From assembly GCA_964486045.1 (NCBI GenBank), contig CAZALK010000013.1, forward strand, positions 1 through 46,740: a stretch of 46,740 bases of DNA, in the 5' to 3' direction. How positions within the stretch are numbered: the stretch's first letter is position 1; the number at the start of each line of letters is the position of its first letter. The notes below the pieces were generated by a model, which saw only the letters and a list, made by a program, of their open reading frames with translations, was not told the DNA's origin and searched no databases. Made by a program: the position numbers and the translations under genes. This document shows positions 37,939 to 46,740 of this stretch, in pieces. The DNA is from an uncultured archaeon. Lineage in GTDB: Archaea; Asgardarchaeota; Lokiarchaeia; Sigyniarchaeales; SOKP01.

Positions 37939-38547
37939 ATGACAGAGCAATTAAAGTCATCAACTAAAATTAATACGGAAAATAGACCTATCTACATTTT
38001 TAAGGTAGTTTTACTTGGACAAGAACGAGTTGGGAAGACTTGTCTTGCCAAGCGTTTATGTTTTAACACTTTTGAAGTAGACACAAAAGAAACGTTAGGA
38101 ATTGAGTTTTATACATATGATCTCCCTATTATAGTTAGTGGAGATAATACCTTTGTAAGAATTAGTATTTGGGATTTTGGTGGACGAGAGCAATTCAAAA
38201 AATTGTTTCCCTATTATATTAATGGTGCCAATGGAATTTTTATGATATTTAACTTGGTAGATATACAAACATTACTTCGATTAGACTGGTGGTATGATAG
38301 GTTAGGCGAATATAATCATGGAACCACTCCTAGAATGTTCATTGGTGCCAAAAAAGATCTTGTAAACAAAATTGATGAAAAATCAAGGGTGGACGATTTA
38401 GTTATTGACAGATTCATGAGTCGTCATGAAGAAGTTGATTTTTTCAAAACTTCTTCGAAAGATAATTGGAATATTAAGGAAATAGTTAAAGAACTCGTTA
38501 TTAGAATATTAGATAGAAACAAATTAGATTACGATCAAATTTATTAA
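37939..38547 (+). CDS. Ras-superfamily (Rab-like) small GTPase
   Basis: G1 GQERVGKT, G2 TLGIEF, G3 WDFGGR, G4 AKKD, G5 TSSK. Confidence 0.92.
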   Translation: MTEQLKSSTKINTENRPIYIFKVVLLGQERVGKTCLAKRLCFNTFEVDTKETLGIEFYTYDLPIIVSGDNTFVRISIWDFGGREQFKKLFPYYINGANGIFMIFNLVDIQTLLRLDWWYDRLGEYNHGTTPRMFIGAKKDLVNKIDEKSRVDDLVIDRFMSRHEEVDFFKTSSKDNWNIKEIVKELVIRILDRNKLDYDQIY

Positions 38548-38604
38548 ATAAAATTAGTCAATTTTTTACATAAGTTTAAATCTCTTTTTCTGAGGAGTGG
38601 TAAA

Positions 38605-38676
38605 ATGGTGGAAATTTATCATGAGAAAGATGAGGATCTTTCAAAATTAAAGGTAAAAACCACCGACTGGAGATGA
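38605..38676 (+). pseudogene. 5' remnant of a ketol-acid reductoisomerase (ilvC-like) gene
   Basis: GAGGAG SD, then MVEIYHEKDEDLSKLKVKT, resembling the IlvC N-terminus, then a stop. Confidence 0.5.
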
Positions 38677-38750
38677 TATTTTGCAACCAAGGGGGATTTC
38701 AGATGAATTAAAATTATTTGAGTAGTACTATGAATGAAATTTAAAGTTAG

Positions 38751-39752
38751 TTATATAAGGATAAGAACAACCCCTAATATTGTTAGAATTACCCCAATGA
38801 ATCCAAATTTAGAAATTTTTTCTTTATTTACAACATAGGTCAAAGGGAGTGCAAATAAAGGACTTGCACTTGCAATTAATGCCATTATATTTGCTCCAGC
38901 TTGATGAATTGCTTCTGTATAAAGATGTGCTCCGAGTGAGGTGCCCAAAATTGAGGCAATTATTAATAATAGCCATGTGCGAAGCCTTTTCTTTTTTTTC
39001 TGTGAAGAATAACTATCTTTTTTTATGTGATTTTCTCTTAATACCATCGATCCCAAGATCAGAGTGGCAAAAGGGAATCTAATCATATTTCCTATAACAG
39101 AACTCAATTCCTCAACATTAACAATTTGATCTATCTGGATTGTGGTGAATTCAATTATAACGGCTCCAATAGCCCATCCTAAAGATGCGGTAATACAAAA
39201 ACCTATTGCTTTGAAAATATTTTTTCTAAGAATTTCATTAAATTTCTTTGTTTTATCTCCATTTAAGGAAAGAATTTTAACGTTTTTAGAATTTTCTGAG
39301 GTTATTTTAGACTTACCGATAATTATGATCCCAATACCGATCAAAACTAGTGTTAAAATCAAGGTAGGGTTAAACGGCTTAGTAAGGAAAATTAGAGATA
39401 ATATGAATGTAAAAAGAGGAAATGTCATCGAAACAGCTAATGCAATGGTAGTTCCTAATTCTTTTTGTGCTGTAAAATATGCCGTATCTCCTATAACTTG
39501 ACCAAAGATAAAACTCAAGATTAACAGGAGCCACAACTCCCATGGAATAATAAAAATAATATTAAATTGATTTATTAACAAAAGCACAAAAAGAAATGTT
39601 AGAGTTCCTATACTTGTACGAAAAAAATTGATAAAAGTTGGGCTAACTTCTTGTTCTGTTTGACGAAAGATAACGTTGGATCCAACAAACGTAAGTACTG
39701 CTAGTATCGCTAGAAATTCTTCTAACATTGATTTTGAAAAGGAAAGCATCAA
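38751..39752 (-). CDS. DMT/EamA family transporter
   Basis: About 10 TMs in two EamA repeats (GQVIGDTAYF..; ASPLFALPL..KEKIS). Confidence 0.9.
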   Translation of the reverse strand: MMLSFSKSMLEEFLAILAVLTFVGSNVIFRQTEQEVSPTFINFFRTSIGTLTFLFVLLLINQFNIIFIIPWELWLLLILSFIFGQVIGDTAYFTAQKELGTTIALAVSMTFPLFTFILSLIFLTKPFNPTLILTLVLIGIGIIIIGKSKITSENSKNVKILSLNGDKTKKFNEILRKNIFKAIGFCITASLGWAIGAVIIEFTTIQIDQIVNVEELSSVIGNMIRFPFATLILGSMVLRENHIKKDSYSSQKKKKRLRTWLLLIIASILGTSLGAHLYTEAIHQAGANIMALIASASPLFALPLTYVVNKEKISKFGFIGVILTILGVVLILI

Positions 39753-39855
39753 TTTTAGATTTTAAGATTTATCTTAAGATTAGAAATGAAATAAAGAAAA
39801 ATTCTAGTGAAAAACACTCTATCTCAAACTTCCCGTCTAAATTTTGCTCTCGATT

Positions 39856-41313
39856 CTAAATTTTATGAATTTTTTCTCCATATTCATAGAATTTCAAAAA
39901 GGATTTAGCAGCAGCTTCAAGGGACGGGAAAACAAGAAAATTATCTTTTTGAAGCATGTCTATGAAAGTTTTCCGGGATACGCTAGGATATTGATGTAAA
40001 ATAATAACGAAAATAACATTCTTTTCTTCTGCATACTTTTTTATATTTAACAAGTTGCTATAATACCCCTTAAAGCGTTCTCCTTCTGTGTCTTTCCACG
40101 CATCTGTTTCAAATATTACTATGCTTATATTTTCATCAATACCTGCCTTAGTTATTTCTACTAATACTTTCTGATGAGTAATAAAGGGTAAATCAAAAGG
40201 ATTTGCTAAAGAACCCAACTTAAGATTGAAAATTTGCTTAAATTTCTCAACTGTTTTCCCTTCAAAATGTGGGACATCTAAACCTAACTCTATTAGCATA
40301 TCAGTTGCCAATATCCCAAAACCACCAGAATAAAGTACAACTAAGGCACGTTTATTTTTAGGATATACGATTTCTTTATTAAGTGCCTTAAAACGTTTAA
40401 AATGGTAAGAGAATAAATAAGCATAATCAATTAATTCATCCAAGGATGAAGAAACTTCAACAATCGAAGTTTGTTTAAAAATTGCATTCCAAATATTCTT
40501 TCCTGTTGCTAAAGATCCCGTATGAGACAAAACTGCTGCCTGAGCTCTTTGTGTTTTTCCTCCCCTCATAAATAAAACTGGTTTTTTCATGTTTTTTAAG
40601 ACATTTAATAGAACTTTTCCTTCATTTTTATGAATTGGTGAAATTCCTTCAAAATAAACACAAATCACATCAGTATCAGCATCATCATCTAAATATTGTA
40701 ACACTTCAGAAATTTGTATATCAACACAATTTCCAATGCTTACACCAATTGAGAATCGAAGATCATACCTACGAGACCCAAATTTAATAGTTTTTGAATG
40801 TAAGTCTCCAGATTGAAAAATTAACCCTATATTTCCAAGTTCGGTTGGAAAAGATGAATAATATGCCGTTTTTCCTCGAGGACTATAAATTCCCATGCAA
40901 TTAGGACCAATACTTCTGGTATTCTTATAATTATCCAAAATTTCTTTTATTTTCCTTTCGATTTCAGTACCAAATTCATCATATTCTCCTGTTCCTGCGG
41001 TAAAAATATGAAAAAATTTGACTTTCTTCTTAGAGAGAATTTCCTTTAAGGTTTGAACTAAAAGATCCCTTCTTATAGACAATATCAATAGATCGATAGT
41101 GTTAATTGGAATTTCATCTAAGGATTTATAACATTTAAGACCCAAAAAAGTGTCCATTTTTGGAGAAATTAAATATAAGTTGTTTAAATCAAAATGTTGT
41201 CTTTTAAATCCCTTTATGAAAAAATCTACGGCATTACCAGCTCTATAAATAACAACATTTCTGGGTTTAAACAAGAATTCTAAAGAATGCTTACTATTAT
41301 CTGAATTCAACAT
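39856..41313 (-). CDS. CoA-binding protein, NDP-forming acyl-CoA synthetase alpha-subunit-like
   Basis: IGPNCMG, QSG, SIGNCVD, SHTGSLA (phospho-His), NPFDL. Confidence 0.88.
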   Translation of the reverse strand: MLNSDNSKHSLEFLFKPRNVVIYRAGNAVDFFIKGFKRQHFDLNNLYLISPKMDTFLGLKCYKSLDEIPINTIDLLILSIRRDLLVQTLKEILSKKKVKFFHIFTAGTGEYDEFGTEIERKIKEILDNYKNTRSIGPNCMGIYSPRGKTAYYSSFPTELGNIGLIFQSGDLHSKTIKFGSRRYDLRFSIGVSIGNCVDIQISEVLQYLDDDADTDVICVYFEGISPIHKNEGKVLLNVLKNMKKPVLFMRGGKTQRAQAAVLSHTGSLATGKNIWNAIFKQTSIVEVSSSLDELIDYAYLFSYHFKRFKALNKEIVYPKNKRALVVLYSGGFGILATDMLIELGLDVPHFEGKTVEKFKQIFNLKLGSLANPFDLPFITHQKVLVEITKAGIDENISIVIFETDAWKDTEGERFKGYYSNLLNIKKYAEEKNVIFVIILHQYPSVSRKTFIDMLQKDNFLVFPSLEAAAKSFLKFYEYGEKIHKI

Positions 41314-41902
41314 TTTCCTCTGGTTTTAATATTAATTTTGTATTACAATTATAACAAAAAATAGGAGTAGAATCAAATTCTGTTGCACATTTCGGACATT
41401 TTGATCTAATTTGCTTAGCTACAATTTGTAAATCTTCTAGATGGTCAACAATTTTAACTTTCTTCATCTTTTTAAGAATATTAGATATTAACAATGAAAT
41501 CGCTGTAATTAATAATCCAATTAAGATTGTATGTAAAAAATGAAATTGAAAATTTAAATTAAAATAATTCACTGAATGCTGATACAGAAAAGTATATACA
41601 AAGAAGTTAGGGAAAAAGAACGTCATCAAATTCATTGAGTAAGCTTTTTTAAAATTAATGTATAGGAAGTCAGGAATAAAAGAGACTATAATCCATATAA
41701 CGTAGATAAAAATCATCCCAGATGAATTGTTAAATAAGACATAGTTAGCTACAAATTGAATAATTCCTTTCTGAGGAATAGTAACAGTGATATCAAAGTT
41801 TATAGTGATAAAATAACGAAAGTAAAATATTAATAAACTTAAGAAAAGAATCTGAATACAGAAGAGAATAATCTTACTTCTGAAAAAATCAATTACCTTC
41901 AT
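41297..41902 (-). CDS. membrane protein with a C-terminal zinc ribbon
   Basis: 4 TMs; CPKC..CYNC. Confidence 0.7.
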   Translation of the reverse strand: MKVIDFFRSKIILFCIQILFLSLLIFYFRYFITINFDITVTIPQKGIIQFVANYVLFNNSSGMIFIYVIWIIVSFIPDFLYINFKKAYSMNLMTFFFPNFFVYTFLYQHSVNYFNLNFQFHFLHTILIGLLITAISLLISNILKKMKKVKIVDHLEDLQIVAKQIRSKCPKCATEFDSTPIFCYNCNTKLILKPEENVEFR

Positions 41903-41989
41903 TAGTAATTAAGTAAATTATATCCAAAAATTAAACTCTTTTAAATATCCTTTAATGAAAAAAAAAGAAGTATATTGGATTTATAATTC

Positions 41990-43492
41990 TCAGATTATCT
42001 TTTTGAATTTTTTCCGTTTTATAACTATTATAGCTATTCCCACAGCTAATGCAGCAGAAAAAATCTCAATCGGATAGCCTGGAATGCTTACTCCTTCCGA
42101 AGGTATTTCGAAATATGCAACAAAAACAGGATCATGAACTAAGTGACCTCCCCCGCTTTCTCCAAATTTTGGATAGCAAGTAATAAAGAAAGCTGCTGTT
42201 TCAGTAGGGTTGAAGGAATCATATGCATCTTCGAAAGGAATTCCGTAAGTAAATTGGTTAGTCTGATTAATTGCGTAACTAATCACTACTTTTGCGAAAT
42301 TTCCCATTAATGGAAGCATTCCCGATACAAATTCTATAAATTCTGAGTTGTCATTGACATCTAGACTTTCATAATAAACTGGATATGTACCCATTGCTGT
42401 TCCATTAATATCTGTAATTTCATATGTTGGTTTTTGACTAAATTTAAAATCAAACGCATGCGTTCCTCCTAAAGTAGTTTGAACTTCAGTTAGTCCTGTT
42501 GTATGTGTGCTTGCGTTGATATCTCCTACTGCCAAATCTGTTAAGGCATAATCTTGCCCAGCCATAATAAAGCTCCACGTTCCAAGAGCGAGAGCCCATT
42601 CATCTGGCATATATCCTTGGTCACCGTCATGGACTTCTACCCAAGGTTCTGTTTGATTTGATCTTATCATTAAAGATCCAAACTTACCAGTTTCATAGTT
42701 TTGGTATAAGGTTGATTCACCTAGTGCAGTATCAATTTCTAAAGAGTAAGTATAGGAAATATACGTTTGGTTTCCAATAGCAGACGATCCGCTGATATAT
42801 GTCCCTGGATCATCATACTGAAAACCCCATTCAAATCCAATTACTGTCCCATTATCAGAGTGGTTCGTTCGGGGAACATAAAAAATTATATCTGTATAAT
42901 TGTAACCCCAAGTATATGTAATAACTGAACCGCTTTCAGAACGCTGTAGGGGGGTTAGCGTGGTTTTCGGAGTAGACTTAATTCCTACCGAATTTTGCAT
43001 TTCAGATGTAGTTGATCCTAAATAGAAGAAAGGATTTATCGATTCCCCATCATCATAGAGATCATTGGAATTATTGTCAGTAAATCCAAACCAAGCACAA
43101 TGCATTGATGCTATTAAAATTTCTGAGCCATTTATATAAAAATGTTGCCACCAAAATTGAGCGGGAGTAGTATAAGTTGAAATTGCTCCATCTTCATAAT
43201 TTGTTTTGTTCATAAATGCTAACATTCCCATCTCAAAATTACCCTCTTTAATCCATTTAATGTTCCAAGTATTATTGATCCAACTAGTCTCATTATTAAC
43301 TTCGGGATGATCCCATCTAGAATTATTGAAAACATTTGTGTCCCAAAAGTTTTCTTCGAAATCATGACCATTAAAAAGTTCATCTTGTGTTGGAATACCA
43401 TCTTGTGCAGTGATATTAAGAGTAAACAACCCTATAACCAATATAGTACAGAAAAATAGGACAAATAATCTGGTTTTTTGATAATATTGCAT
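41990..43492 (-). CDS. secreted surface glycoprotein with a Loki-CTERM-like anchor
   Basis: Signal peptide, many NxS/T sequons, C-terminal SIPGYP + TM + KRKK. Confidence 0.75.
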   Translation of the reverse strand: MQYYQKTRLFVLFFCTILVIGLFTLNITAQDGIPTQDELFNGHDFEENFWDTNVFNNSRWDHPEVNNETSWINNTWNIKWIKEGNFEMGMLAFMNKTNYEDGAISTYTTPAQFWWQHFYINGSEILIASMHCAWFGFTDNNSNDLYDDGESINPFFYLGSTTSEMQNSVGIKSTPKTTLTPLQRSESGSVITYTWGYNYTDIIFYVPRTNHSDNGTVIGFEWGFQYDDPGTYISGSSAIGNQTYISYTYSLEIDTALGESTLYQNYETGKFGSLMIRSNQTEPWVEVHDGDQGYMPDEWALALGTWSFIMAGQDYALTDLAVGDINASTHTTGLTEVQTTLGGTHAFDFKFSQKPTYEITDINGTAMGTYPVYYESLDVNDNSEFIEFVSGMLPLMGNFAKVVISYAINQTNQFTYGIPFEDAYDSFNPTETAAFFITCYPKFGESGGGHLVHDPVFVAYFEIPSEGVSIPGYPIEIFSAALAVGIAIIVIKRKKFKKII

Positions 43493-43863: not shown

Positions 43864-46740
43864 ATGAGCTATACTTTTTCAAGAACCAAATTAATAGAAA
43901 AAATCAAATTTGGACTTTTAAGTCCAGATGAGATACGAAAAATGTCTGCCGCTCGTATTATTACAGCAGACACTTATGATGAAGATGGTCTTCCGATACC
44001 AAGTGGTTTAATGGATCAAAGATTGGGTACAATCGAGCCTGGTCAACGATGTCAGACATGTGGAAATCTAGTTAGTAACTGTATGGGACACTTTGGACAT
44101 TGTGAGAAACAATTAGTTTCTTACGTCTAAATAGAGTTAGCCCGTCCAGTTATTCATGTAGGATATGCGAAAAAAGTACTTAAAGTCCTAAGATCTATAT
44201 GTCCTGAATGTTCTAGATTAATGCTCACAGACGAGGAAAAGGAGGAATTTCGTCAAGAACAAATAAAACATAGAAAGATCTTTTTTGAGGGAGATGAAGA
44301 GGCTTCTAAAATAGTATTCAAGCGTGCAAGGAAAACTAAAAATTGTCCGTATTGTGGTGCTAAAAAAAAGAAGATTGTTATTGAAAAACCAACCACTTTT
44401 TATGAAGAGGAAGAAGGAAAGGGATCTCGCAGAATAACTCCTATTGAGATTTTAGACCGATTAAAAAAAATGACTGATATTGATCTTAGAGTCTTAGGTA
44501 TTTCACCCGAAAATGCCCGGCTTGAATGGGTAATTTTTACTGTACTACCTATCCCTCCTGTATGTGCACGCCCTTCAATTACATTGGACAGTGGTATTAG
44601 GTCAGAAGATGATTTAACTCATAAATTAGTAGATGTTATAAGAATTAATCAAAGATTAAGGGAAAATATAGACGCAGGAGCTCCTCATCTAATTGTAGAA
44701 GATCTCTGGGAATTATTACAATATCATATTACCACATATTTTGACAATCAAGTTTCTGGGATACCTCCTGCTAGACATCGCTCAGGGAGAGCACTTAGAA
44801 CGTTGACTCAAAGATTAAAAGGCAAAGAAGGGAGATTTAGAAGTAATTTAAGTGGGAAAAGAGTCGATTTTTCTGCAAGAAGCGTAATTTCACCAAATCC
44901 TTATATAAGCATTAACGATGTGGGTGTACCTATAGAAATTGCGAAAATTTTAACCATACCTACTAATGTTAATGATTGGAATATTGAGGAAATGAAGCAA
45001 ATGGTCTTAAATGGACCTCATCATCACCCTGGGGCCAATTATATTATACGGAATGATCGTAGAAGAATTGACTTACGCTATGTTAAAAATCGCAAGATTA
45101 TCGCTGATATGTTAGCGCCAGGGTTCACTGTTGAACGACATTTGAATGAGGGAGATTTAGTTTTGTTCAATCGTCAACCCTCACTTCATAGGATGTCTAT
45201 AATGGCACATGAGGTAAAAATTATGGATGGAAGGACTTTTAGATTAAATTTAACTGTATGCCCTCCATATAATGCTGATTTTGATGGGGATGAGATGAAT
45301 TTACATGTACCCCAAAGTGAGGAAGCCCGAACAGAAGCAGAATTGCTTCTTAAAGTACAAAACCATATATTATCCCCCCGGTTTGGAGGCCCTATTTTAG
45401 GTGGGATTCAAGATTTTATTTCAAGTGTTTTTCAATTCACAAGTAAGAATTCGTTATATAATAAAAAAGATACATTAAAATTATTGTATAATGGAGATGT
45501 GTTCATTAATAACCCTGATTTTAATCTAGAAGAATTAACTCCTTCAATTACAAATCCAGAACCTTTATATTCTGGTAAAGAAATATTTAGTAGTTTATTT
45601 CCTGATGATTTAAACATAAAAGTTAAGTCAAAATTTTGTAAAAAATGTGATGTGTGTGAAGAAGATAACTGCTCTTATGATGCTTATGTCGTAATTAGAA
45701 ACGGAAAGCTGTTAACTGGAACAATCGATGAAAATTCTTTTGGTGCTATGCAATCTAATAGTATTCTTCAGAGAATTATTAAAGATCATGGAAATGCCCT
45801 TGGAAGGCAATTTTTAGATAGTGCCACTAAAATGCTATTGTATGTAATTAGACAAAATGGAATAACTATGGGATTAGATGAGGTTTATGTCCATGGTCAT
45901 GCTTATGAACATATTCAAAAAATTTTAGAGGATGCTACTGATGAATCTAACAAACTTATTAAAGCATTTTATGAAAATGATACTTCTGTTCTAAAAAGAG
46001 CTCCAGGGAGATCAATGAGAGAAACTTTAGAATTGCGAATTCGTCAAGTATTGGCAGAGGCACGTAAGGAAGCAGAAGAGTCCGCTGCTGACTTCATAGG
46101 GGATGAAGCCCATTCAGTTATCATGACTAAATCAGGTGCAAGGGGAAACATATTAAACTTGGGACAAATGTCTGCTGTAGTAGGTCAACAAGCTATTAGA
46201 GGCGAGAGAATTAACCGAGGTTATGGTAATAGAACTCTACCACATTTTAAAGTTGATGATCTCTCCCCTAAATCCAGAGGTTTTGTTTCATCATCTTATA
46301 GAAATGGATTAAAACCAGCAGAATTCTTTTTTCATGCTATGGGGGGAAGAGAAGGGCTTGTTGATACAGCAGTGAGAACATCTCAGAGTGGTTATATGCA
46401 ACGAAGATTAGTGAATGCATTACAAGATATGGTTGTAGAAAATGACGGAACTGTTAGGAATTCCGATAAAAATATAATCCAATTCCGATTTGGTGATGAT
46501 GGAATTGATGCAATGCATACCGATCATGGAGCAGCAGTAAATCTAGATGTTTTATTGCTAAAAGCTAAAGCATTAGATGTAGAGAAGATTCGTAAAGAGG
46601 TAAAGGAAGCTTCTTCTACTAAAAAGGCTTCTTCTACTAAAAAGGCTTCTTCTACTAAAAAGGCTTCTTCTACTAAAAAGGCTTCTTCTACTAAAAAAGC
46701 TTCTTCTACTAAAAAAGCTTCTTCTACTAAAAAAGCTTCT
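43864..46740 (+). CDS. rpoA1: DNA-directed RNA polymerase subunit A' (Rpo1N); join(43864..44100,44131..>46740), runs off the window
   Basis: Exon 1 ..[13 protein letters not shown]; exon 2 [62 protein letters not shown]; exon 2 is open for 870 codons. Confidence 0.96.
44101..44130 (+). other. putative bulge-helix-bulge (archaeal-type) mRNA intron, 30 nt
   Basis: GGAC/GTCT 4-bp central helix, 3-nt bulges AT^T and AA^A, 9-bp intron stem; excision gives CAT|ATA (GHFGH-IEL) and removes the in-frame TAA. Confidence 0.85.
46609..46740 (+). repeat. 18-bp coding tandem repeat GCTTCTTCTACTAAAAAR (ASSTKK), at least 7.3 copies
   Basis: 4 units ending AAG, 3 ending AAA, and a partial unit at the window edge; in frame with rpoA1. 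Confidence 0.95.

What the first reader, a model, noticed from the sequence alone, without database searches (positions are those of the whole stretch)
46561..46740. Ser/Thr/Lys hexapeptide tandem repeat (ASSTKK)n on RNAP subunit A'
Seen: after the normal end of the A' homology region (..[13 protein letters not shown]) the frame continues into at least 7 copies of ASSTKK, nearly perfect at the DNA level. The AAG and AAA variants form blocks, suggesting recent slippage expansion. Inference: a disordered, basic, phosphorylatable tail or A'-A'' linker, analogous to the Pol II CTD or histone H1 tails. It is not positionally homologous to the CTD, which lies after the A''-equivalent region.
Basis: partly seen in the sequence, partly recalled or inferred. 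Interest (0 to 1): 0.7.

Follow-up and report, generated by a model that had tools for sequence, protein, structure and literature searches.

The report
Repeat-expanded tethered tail on RNA polymerase A'
The ASSTKK repeat is real and sits in frame on the largest RNA polymerase subunit (A') of a Loki-type Asgard archaeon, but it is a species-specific expansion inside a lysine-rich floppy linker found on A' in two families of this order (and without the end domain in a third), which ends in a small, undescribed folded domain and then a stop codon, so it is neither an A'-A'' fusion nor a conserved CTD-like array.

Summary
Observation confirmed with corrections. The 18-nt unit (ASSTKK) starts at 46609, not 46561, and runs 7.3 copies to the window end. 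The window stops there because the assembly has a 100-N scaffold gap inside the array. After the gap come 4.1 more copies, 31 more linker residues, a conserved 38-aa C-terminal module and a TAA stop. rpoA'' is a separate gene 33 nt downstream. Copy number is therefore at least 11 and unknown.

About 100 relatives of two Lokiarchaeia families carry the same A' tail: a Lys/Ser/Thr/Pro-rich linker (median 45 aa) plus the module (three modules in one genus). None of them has ASSTKK repeats. The nearest relatives have a single copy of the unit, and several other lineages have their own expansions.

AlphaFold predicts the linker to be disordered and the module to be helix-hairpin-helix (pLDDT about 92). 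The module matches no Pfam or NCBIfam family and no solved fold. It occurs on 3-23 places per genome and only in these two families.

A CTD-like role is not supported. The best reading is a polycationic tether with a terminal adaptor domain, lengthened here by recent slippage.

This scan had already flagged the tail on other DNA, and also the BHB mini-intron in the same gene.

The parts
43864..44100 (+). rpoA' (rpo1N) exon 1, 79 codons ending in GHFGH
   Evidence: Pfam RNA_pol_Rpb1_1 positions 2-75, E 8e-21. 95-99% identical to the N-terminus of uninterrupted A' genes of the same genus.
44101..44130 (+). 30-nt stop-containing insert with a bulge-helix-bulge-like fold (candidate tRNA-type mini-intron); not part of the tail but part of the same gene
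   Evidence: Relatives lack it at exactly this point. Ten 30-nt inserts at the same site in other species covary: 88.8% of cells paired, 11 of 17 pairs changed on both sides, 0 of 500 shuffles as high.
44131..46563 (+). rpoA' core up to ...NLDVLLLK, the last stretch that aligns with solved A' subunits
   Evidence: Pfam Rpb1 domains 1-5. PDB 4qiw_A matches at E 6.5e-67, aligned to residue 896 of 906.
46564..46608 (+). [15 protein letters not shown]: end of the normal A' C-terminus and start of the extension
   Evidence: Translation. Solved A' chains end about 10 residues after LLLK. Conserved as [12 protein letters not shown] in the genus.
46609..46740 (+). (ASSTKK) array, part before the gap: 7.3 units of GCTTCTTCTACTAAAAAR.

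The feature continues beyond the window. Contig C13 coordinates simply continue the window's:
- 46741-46840: 100-N scaffold gap inside the array.
- 46841-46913: 4.1 more units, all ending AAA.
- 46914-47006: non-repetitive Lys-rich linker.
- 47007-47120: conserved 38-aa module, then Gly.
- 47124-47126: TAA stop.
- 47160-48356: separate rpoA'' gene (398 aa), followed by rpl30e-like, nusA-like, rps12 and rps7.
   Evidence: Array in the window: TRF, translation, unit list.

Beyond the window:
- Gap. G000 is not among the genomes with withheld bases.
- Resumed array.
- Linker: translation; it aligns with the relatives' linkers; pLDDT 47-58.
- Module: profile A1 hit at E 9e-19; helix-hairpin-helix at pLDDT 85-92.
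- rpoA'' and neighbouring genes.

Best explanation
The repeat is a recent, lineage-private replication-slippage expansion of one six-residue unit (ASSTKK) at the start of a disordered, polycationic linker. The linker joins the normal end of RNA polymerase subunit A' to a small folded C-terminal module.

Shown:
- The tail architecture (linker plus module) is present on A' in two families of this Lokiarchaeia order.
- The linker varies freely in length and sequence and repeatedly gains tandem duplications.
- Only the module is conserved.
- The polypeptide ends before a separate rpoA''.

Inferred:
- The tail emerges at the A'/A'' split point, the equivalent of Rpb1 residue about 880 at the base of the foot/cleft region.
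- It acts as a flexible tether. Its lysine-rich, H1-like linker gives non-specific affinity for nucleic acid.
- Its terminal module docks on a ligand that is also used by the many other proteins carrying the same module. I cannot tell whether that ligand is protein or nucleic acid.
- The ASSTKK expansion mainly lengthens the tether to at least about 113 residues, against a genus median of about 45, and adds at least 22 positive charges. It is probably close to neutral rather than a new signalling array.
For: Repeat and frame.

Continuation, stop and separate A''.

Scaffold gap.

Conserved tail: 24 same-genus genomes and a second family all show linker plus module. In 80 distinct tails scored the linker has a median of 45 aa (range 34-123), and about one third of its residues are K or R.

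Ancestral single copy: the nearest relatives read KE(A/V)S..KK followed by (A/T/S)S(P/T)KV.K (..SSSKK-ASPKVKK in two of them), where G000 has KE-(ASSTKK)n-ASPKVVK.

Independent expansions elsewhere: (PTKK)x6, (KKKDES)x3, (TPKKK)x4, (AAPKK)x9 and a duplicated 30-aa block.

Disorder versus fold: pLDDT 47-58 without secondary structure for repeat and linker, about 92 for the module. The module alone gives pLDDT 85.

The module is a mobile domain. There are 397 representative proteins at E<=1e-3, and in most of the best 150 the match lies at the C-terminal end; those I read have a Lys-rich linker before it. Partner domains include beta-helix/NosD, LRR, PD-(D/E)XK, ribosomal L13e, small GTPases, reverse transcriptase, ABC ATPase and HisKA-receiver.

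It was found in 54/54 and 5/5 genomes of two families and in 0/191 genomes of other families of the phylum.

Solved A' chains end about 10 residues after LLLK.
Against: No experiment or binding prediction supports any ligand for the linker or the module.

The module as a whole is charge-neutral: an acidic first helix (mean -4.2) and a basic hairpin plus second helix (mean +4.1). That is not typical of a simple DNA-binding domain.

Many of its other carriers (membrane proteins, GTPases, kinases) have no obvious link to nucleic acids.

The gap hides part of the array. Continuity of the reading frame is inferred from repeat phase and homology, not read directly.

Recurrent expansion in several lineages could reflect selection for longer or more charged tethers rather than neutrality.
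Confidence: 0.72

Rival explanations
1. CTD-like or H1-like signalling platform. The Ser/Thr-rich hexad array is itself functional: it is phosphorylated by Asgard Ser/Thr kinases and recruits factors to the polymerase, as the Pol II CTD does.
For: Each unit has three hydroxyl residues and two lysines. It sits on the largest subunit. Linkers of other lineages also build tandem arrays, some with TP motifs such as (TPKKK)x4 and (PTKK)x6.
Against: The array is absent from all of about 100 related A' tails, including relatives whose tails are 63-75% identical and carry a single copy of the unit. The unit has no proline-directed site and no tyrosine. It lies before A'', so it is not positionally homologous to the CTD. 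Near-identity at the DNA level means it is too young to be a conserved platform. No phosphorylation data exist.
Confidence: 0.1
2. Assembly artefact. The two repeat blocks were joined wrongly by the scaffolder, or the array is a collapsed or expanded artefact, so the tail after the gap does not belong to this rpoA'.
For: A 100-N scaffold gap lies inside the array. The bin has 7.8% estimated contamination. No other public contig with this repeat was found.
Against: The unit and its phase are identical on both sides of the gap. The sequence after the gap aligns residue by residue with the linker and module of every relative's A' tail. It is followed by rpoA'', rpl30e, nusA, rps12 and rps7 in the standard order. 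The 18-mer occurs only at this locus.
Confidence: 0.05
3. A'-A'' fusion linker. The repeat connects A' and A'' into one Rpb1-like polypeptide.
For: Some other archaea do have fused genes. Open frames of more than 450 residues run past the split point in the Nitrososphaeria and Bathyarchaeia loci L114, L115, L119 and L120.
Against: There is a TAA stop at C13:47124-47126, a 33-nt spacer, and an ATG-initiated 398-aa rpoA''. All relatives examined have the same stop after the module.
Confidence: 0.01
4. The tail is primarily a nucleic-acid-binding appendage. Its module would be a remote, truncated relative of the RNase H1 hybrid-binding domain (or an Lsr2-like RGR domain), holding the polymerase on DNA or on RNA-DNA hybrids.
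For: The second half of the module (A-I/V-x-R-G-K/R-x-T-K-x-Y/F-x-x-W) aligns with the first 16-18 positions of Pfam Cauli_VI (whole-protein E 1e-4 for a three-module tail). It also aligns with PDB 3bsu and 1qhk at the same register (E 0.7-0.9). The Lsr2 DNA-binding domain is the third-best structural match (Z 3.0). Carriers include RNAP, ribosomal L13e, nucleases and a reverse transcriptase.
Against: All these matches are below significance and cover less than half of the HBD. PF01693 finds nothing in 61 genomes of the order at E<=0.01. The predicted topology is alpha-beta-beta-alpha, not beta-beta-alpha-beta-alpha. The best fold Z is 3.4 with no family standing out. The module is net neutral.
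Confidence: 0.2

Closest known systems
Archaeal RNA polymerase subunit A' / Rpo1N (for example Thermococcus kodakarensis 4QIW chain A, Saccharolobus 2PMZ chain A)
   Same: The body of the protein is an ordinary Rpo1N: Pfam Rpb1 domains 1-5, E 6.5e-67 to 4qiw_A, and a separate A'' gene downstream.
   Different: Solved A' subunits end about 10 residues after the LLLK-equivalent position. Here at least 150 further residues follow (repeat, linker, module).
C-terminal domain (CTD) of eukaryotic Rpb1
   Same: A low-complexity, hydroxyl-rich tandem repeat on the largest polymerase subunit, predicted to be disordered, with copy number that can change by slippage.
   Different: It is a hexad ASSTKK, not a YSPTSPS heptad. 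It sits on the A' half at about the Rpb1-880 equivalent, not after the A'' half. It is strongly basic. It is private to one genome rather than conserved. It ends in a folded domain.
Lys-rich C-terminal tail of linker histone H1 and S/TPKK-type basic tails
   Same: The composition is about one third Lys, with the rest rich in Ser, Thr, Pro and Ala, and disorder is predicted. Short STKK, TPKEK and SPKV motifs occur. Such tails bind DNA non-specifically (established for H1; inferred here).
   Different: It is attached to an enzyme subunit, not to a winged-helix globular domain. There are few canonical SPKK sites. There is no evidence of DNA binding.
Bacterial RNA polymerase alpha-subunit C-terminal domain (alpha-CTD)
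   Same: It works like this in outline: a small helical domain on a flexible linker hanging off the polymerase core, free to reach DNA or regulators.
   Different: There is no sequence or fold relationship. It is on a different subunit. The linker is much longer and polycationic. The module is shared with many non-transcription proteins.
RNase H1 N-terminal hybrid-binding domain (Pfam PF01693, Cauli_VI)
   Same: Local motif A-V/I-x-R-G-R/K-x-T-x-V/I-F/Y-x-x-W and a beta-hairpin followed by a helix.
   Different: Only 16-18 of 44 positions match. The third strand and the second helix of the HBD are missing and a helix precedes the hairpin instead. The match is below threshold in genome searches.

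Membership tests
Archaeal RNA polymerase subunit A' (Rpo1N) | Rpb1 domains 1-4 plus the first part of domain 5 (bridge helix region), with the [10 protein letters not shown] active-site motif | tested here: met
   Pfam PF04997, PF00623, PF04983, PF05000 and PF04998 positions 1-67. [11 protein letters not shown] is present in the translation. PDB A' chains match at E 1e-55 to 6.5e-67.
Archaeal RNA polymerase subunit A' (Rpo1N) | Split from A'' (a separate gene carrying the rest of Rpb1 domain 5) | tested here: met
   Stop at C13:47124-47126. rpoA'' ORF of 398 aa, with PF04998 positions 66-265.
Pol II CTD-type repeat | Lies at the C-terminus of the complete largest subunit, after the A''-equivalent region | tested here: not met
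   The repeat follows the A' half and precedes rpoA''.
Pol II CTD-type repeat | Tandem heptads of YSPTSPS type | tested here: not met
   The unit is the hexad ASSTKK, with no Tyr and no Pro.
Pol II CTD-type repeat | Repeat array conserved across the lineage | tested here: not met
   None of about 100 related A' tails has the array. The nearest relatives have one copy.
Pol II CTD-type repeat | Cycle of Ser/Thr phosphorylation coupled to transcription | not testable with these tools
   This needs phosphoproteomics or kinase assays.
H1-like / S(T)PKK basic DNA-binding tail | Lys-rich, Ser/Thr/Pro/Ala-rich low-complexity sequence predicted to be disordered | tested here: met
   Linker K+R is about one third of residues in 80 tails. 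pLDDT 47-58 and no secondary structure.
H1-like / S(T)PKK basic DNA-binding tail | Repeated S/T-P-K-K motifs | tested here: inconclusive
   The G000 unit is S-T-K-K without Pro. Single TPKEK and SPKV sites follow. Other lineages have (TPKKK)x4 and (PTKK)x6.
H1-like / S(T)PKK basic DNA-binding tail | Binds DNA | not testable with these tools
   This needs EMSA or a similar assay.
RNase H1 hybrid-binding domain (PF01693 Cauli_VI) | Full-length match to the 44-position profile above the curated cut-off for a domain | tested here: not met
   Only positions 4-19/21 match and no single stretch passes on its own. 0 of 61 genomes of the order match at E<=0.01. PDB HBDs match at E 0.7-0.9.
RNase H1 hybrid-binding domain (PF01693 Cauli_VI) | beta-beta-alpha-beta-alpha fold | tested here: not met
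   The AF2 models give helix, two short strands, helix.
Lsr2 / H-NS-type RGR DNA-binding domain | Structural similarity clearly above background | tested here: inconclusive
   6qkp at Z 3.0, rmsd 3.0, 38 aligned residues, ranked third among unrelated folds with Z 2.2-3.4. Foldseek gives nothing at E<=0.001.
Archaeal bulge-helix-bulge intron (for the 30-nt insert at 44101-44130, noticed in passing) | 4-bp central helix flanked by two bulges that hold the splice sites, symmetric about the helix | tested here: met
   The central helix is paired in 100% of cells and covaries with the exon wobble base. The 5' bulge is 3 nt and the 3' bulge 4 nt (relaxed). Both junctions lie 2 nt 3' of the helix strands. 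Motif definition from PMC5829648.
Archaeal bulge-helix-bulge intron (for the 30-nt insert at 44101-44130, noticed in passing) | Removed from the RNA by EndA and ligated | not testable with these tools
   No transcript data are available.

The most novel reading that the evidence does not exclude
The 38-aa module marks an undescribed Lokiarchaeia-specific docking system. A lysine-rich leash plus this module would tether RNA polymerase, a ribosomal protein (L13e), nucleases, small GTPases, kinases and membrane proteins to one common cellular structure or hub. The leash on the polymerase, prone to tandem expansion, would then be an evolvable recruiting arm on the largest RNAP subunit in close archaeal relatives of eukaryotes: a functional, non-homologous counterpart of the CTD.
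Probability: 0.15. Interest if true: 0.8.

Novelty: new variant of a known kind. Interest (0 to 1): 0.42.

Why it matters
Lineage-specific appendages on the polymerase's largest subunit are how eukaryotes couple transcription to RNA processing.

Here a cultivable branch of Asgard archaea is shown to carry a flexible, charged arm with a conserved end-domain on Rpo1N, and Ca. Lokiarchaeum ossiferum has the same tail. This gives archaeal-transcription laboratories a concrete object to test: delete the tail, pull down its partners, and look for it in cryo-EM maps.

The module itself is an unnamed domain family with about 400 representative proteins, restricted to two families of the order.

The ASSTKK array on its own is ordinary. 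It shows that the linker tolerates, or perhaps favours, rapid length change, and it warns that copy number in this assembly is unresolved.

Tried and rejected
- A'-A'' fusion: rejected by the stop codon and the separate gene.
- Contig-end artefact: rejected. The contig continues, and the break is a scaffold gap.
- Resolving the copy number from other public data failed. Two metagenome scans, one for the 5' junction and one for a two-unit repeat, found nothing. A word-based protein search of longer proteins found only relatives with a single copy of the unit.
- Naming the module failed in every library tried: Pfam at E<=1, NCBIfam, PDB sequences, VIA-align against 48,161 chains (best Z 3.4), Foldseek PDB (no E<=0.001) and ESM Atlas twice.
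- RNase H1 HBD membership was considered because of a shared local motif. It was rejected as membership and kept only as a weak lead.
- Literature searches found no description of this tail.
- The minus-strand ORF over the tail (L003:2928-3290) spans the N gap and low-complexity DNA. I did not treat it as a gene.
Full report
1. What is in the sequence.
- The open frame 44221-46740 translates to an RNA polymerase A' body and ends, at the window edge, in (ASSTKK)7-AS.
- Tandem Repeats Finder reports one array at 46609-46740: period 18, 7.3 copies, 99% matches, score 243.
- The interval 46561-46608 is not repeat. It encodes [16 protein letters not shown]. Solved archaeal A' subunits align up to the LLLK at 46561-46563 and then end about 10 residues later (4qiw_A aligned to 896 of 906; 2pmz_A to 869 of 880).

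2. The window end is a scaffold gap, not a contig end.
- The window is positions 1-46740 of a 172,878-b contig.
- Positions 46741-46840 are 100 N. The genome has eight 100-N and five 10-N runs, which is a scaffolder's signature, and this genome is not listed as having withheld bases.
- Directly after the gap the same unit resumes for 4.1 copies, all of the AAA type. The 18-mer occurs nowhere else in the genome.
- Because the N run has an arbitrary length, the ORF finder's reading across it (901 aa, stop at L003:3127) is meaningless. Reading the units after the gap in the ASSTKK phase gives 94 residues (P0002): four repeat units (24 aa), 31 further Lys-rich residues, a compact C-terminal segment and a TAA.
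- rpoA'' starts 33 nt later as its own 398-aa ORF (PF04998 positions 66-265). It is followed by an L7Ae/L30e-family gene, a NusA-like KH protein, rps12 and rps7.
- The tail therefore belongs to A', it terminates, and there is no fusion. Copy number is at least 11.4 and unknown. I could not resolve it from public data.

3. The tail is conserved; the repeat is not.
- The organism is a Lokiarchaeia/Promethearchaeia MAG. Its nearest named records are 'Promethearchaeota archaeon' MAGs. The second family that shares the tail includes Ca. Harpocratesius repetitus and Ca. Lokiarchaeum ossiferum.
- All same-genus genomes with a hit, and that second family, extend A' in the same way: a linker rich in Lys, Ser, Thr, Pro and Ala, then a conserved motif of consensus ..DEE.L..QFE.ETGK.AIWRGKETKAYL.WK.EK..
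- Over 80 distinct tails the linker has a median of 45 residues (range 34-123), and about one third of its residues are Lys or Arg.
- One genus (Harpocratesius and kin) has three modules in series on A' (loci L034-L036).
- A third family has a Lys-rich tail without the module. A fourth ends like ordinary A' (L038-L040).
- The outgroup archaea returned by the scan lack the tail.
- None of these tails contains ASSTKK repeats.
- The closest relatives, whose tails are 63-75% identical, read ..KE(A/V)S..KK followed by (A/T/S)S(P/T)KV.KVSETKPKK.. (..SSSKK-ASPKVKK.. in two of them). G000 reads ..KE-(ASSTKK)n-ASPKVVKASELKPKK... The array is therefore an expansion of one pre-existing hexapeptide at the start of the linker.
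- Other lineages have their own private expansions: (PTKK)x6, (KKKDES)x3, (TPKKK)x4, KKKTT-type runs, (AAPKK)x9 and a duplicated 30-residue block. The linker is thus a recurrent site of slippage or duplication, under constraint on composition rather than on sequence.

4. Physical nature.
- AlphaFold2 was run on the G000 tail after the gap, with 24 aligned tails. It gives pLDDT 47-58 and no secondary structure for the repeat and linker. It gives about 92 for the last 38 residues, which form a helix, a short beta-hairpin (the WRGK turn) and a second helix. The module alone gives the same fold at pLDDT 85.
- The module is a charge dipole: the first helix has a mean net charge of -4.2, and the hairpin plus second helix +4.1. 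Invariant residues are Ala20, Thr27 and Trp33. Glu15, Gly17, Lys18, Arg23 and Gly24 are nearly invariant.

5. The module is a mobile, unnamed domain.
- A profile search of 1.84 billion representative proteins finds 397 at E<=1e-3. They are 40 to over 1600 residues long. In most of the best 150 the match lies at the C-terminal end, those I read have a Lys-rich linker before it, and some carry up to eight matched stretches.
- Partner domains include right-handed beta-helix/NosD, LRR, PD-(D/E)XK and Cap4 nucleases, ribosomal protein L13e, Ras/Roc/Arf-type GTPases, a reverse transcriptase and BBS-like beta-propellers. In this genome the partners are an ABC ATPase, HisKA-receiver proteins, an LRR protein and a 259-aa multipass membrane protein.
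- In a sample of 251 genomes of the phylum it is present in 54/54 and 5/5 genomes of the two families (3-23 matches each; 17 in G000). It was not found in 191 genomes of other families.
- It matches no family at significance in Pfam, NCBIfam, PDB sequences, Foldseek, VIA-align or the ESM Atlas.
- Two sub-threshold leads both point to nucleic-acid binders. One is the first 16-18 positions of the RNase H1 hybrid-binding domain. The other is the Lsr2 DNA-binding domain at Z 3.0. PF01693 itself finds nothing in 61 genomes of the order, and the predicted topology differs, so membership is not met.

6. How it most likely works.
- Shown: A' carries a disordered polycationic linker ending in a folded module, and only the module is conserved.
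- From established knowledge: the A'/A'' break corresponds to about residue 880 of Rpb1 (alignment), at the surface of the foot/cleft region. An arm of 50-150 residues from there can reach DNA or nascent RNA around the enzyme. Lys-rich S/T/P tails such as that of histone H1 bind nucleic acid non-specifically.
- Inferred: the tail is a tether whose linker adds unspecific nucleic-acid affinity, and whose module docks on a ligand shared with the other carriers. The ASSTKK expansion roughly doubles the tether and adds at least 22 positive charges. Because it is private to one genome and nearly perfect at the DNA level, it is most simply a recent, near-neutral slippage product.
- The CTD-like reading is not excluded but has no positive support.

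7. Literature. Full-text searches found no description of this A' extension or of the module. Two first-stage notes of this scan had flagged the same tail, on the adjoining window and in another genome. I tested both descriptions here.

8. Side finding in the same gene.
- The A' frame is broken after GHFGH by a 30-nt insert with a TAA (44101-44130). No in-frame start would rescue the next 30 conserved residues.
- At least 15 of 144 genomes of the order with a hit, all in this family, have an insert at or 5 nt after this point. Two genomes have both, separated by a 5-nt micro-exon.
- Ten 30-nt inserts fold alike. A 4-bp helix pairs the exon GGNC with the intron G..Y. It is flanked by a 3-nt and a 4-nt bulge that hold both junctions. 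A 9-bp inner helix has changes on both sides at all nine pairs. 0 of 500 shuffles reach the observed values.
- This fits a relaxed bulge-helix-bulge intron, as defined in PMC5829648. Another agent of this scan had already reported it.

Noticed in passing
window 44101-44130: A 30-nt in-frame insert with a TAA splits rpoA' between GHFGH and IELARPV. It folds as a relaxed bulge-helix-bulge motif with strong covariation across ten species, so it is a candidate tRNA-type mini-intron in an essential mRNA. Another agent of this scan had already reported it (e1-5505518). I re-derived it independently.
   Followed up: yes
L153, L156, L170 (type 2 only); L155, L162 (both types): A second insertion site lies 5 nt downstream, after ATAGA in phase 2 of the Glu codon. 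Its inserts are 35-85 nt long and end in TATAAA. A TATA/TATA central helix is possible, and one helix covaries (CTGGTT/AACCAG versus TTGGTT/AACCAA). Two genomes carry both inserts around a 5-nt micro-exon. Genomes G313, G314 and G174 show breaks (a stop inside the match or a split match) further upstream in the same exon; I fetched these loci but did not examine those sites.
   Followed up: partly
G000 contigs C4:127181-128473, C1:291685-296835, C2:150495-151271, C6:206336-207559, C1:428100-429098, C10:122792-124405 and others: The same 38-aa module sits on 15-20 other open frames of this genome (20 at E<=0.01). These include a protein with three to five partial copies, an ABC ATPase (module at the N-terminus), HisKA-receiver proteins, an LRR protein and a conserved multipass membrane protein of about 260 aa.
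   Followed up: partly
L034-L036 (genus of Ca. Harpocratesius repetitus): The A' tails here are 345-376 residues past the SGYMQRR motif. They carry three copies of the module separated by acidic or basic low-complexity spacers.
   Followed up: partly
L037 (G039:C81): Another A' tail, in a different genus, runs into an acidic (EEEEL)-type repeat that is also broken by an N gap. Repeats in this tail are a recurrent assembly breakpoint.
   Followed up: no
window 37939-43492: rpoA' is not preceded by rpoH or rpoB. Upstream lie minus-strand genes: two without Pfam hits, a succinyl-CoA-ligase-like gene and an EamA transporter. There is also a plus-strand Ras-family small GTPase.
   Followed up: no
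L117 (Methanomethylophilaceae MAG): An unrelated archaeon has an acidic Asp/Glu/Gly-rich extension of about 45 residues at the same A' C-terminus. Extensions at this split point are therefore not unique to Lokiarchaeia.
   Followed up: no
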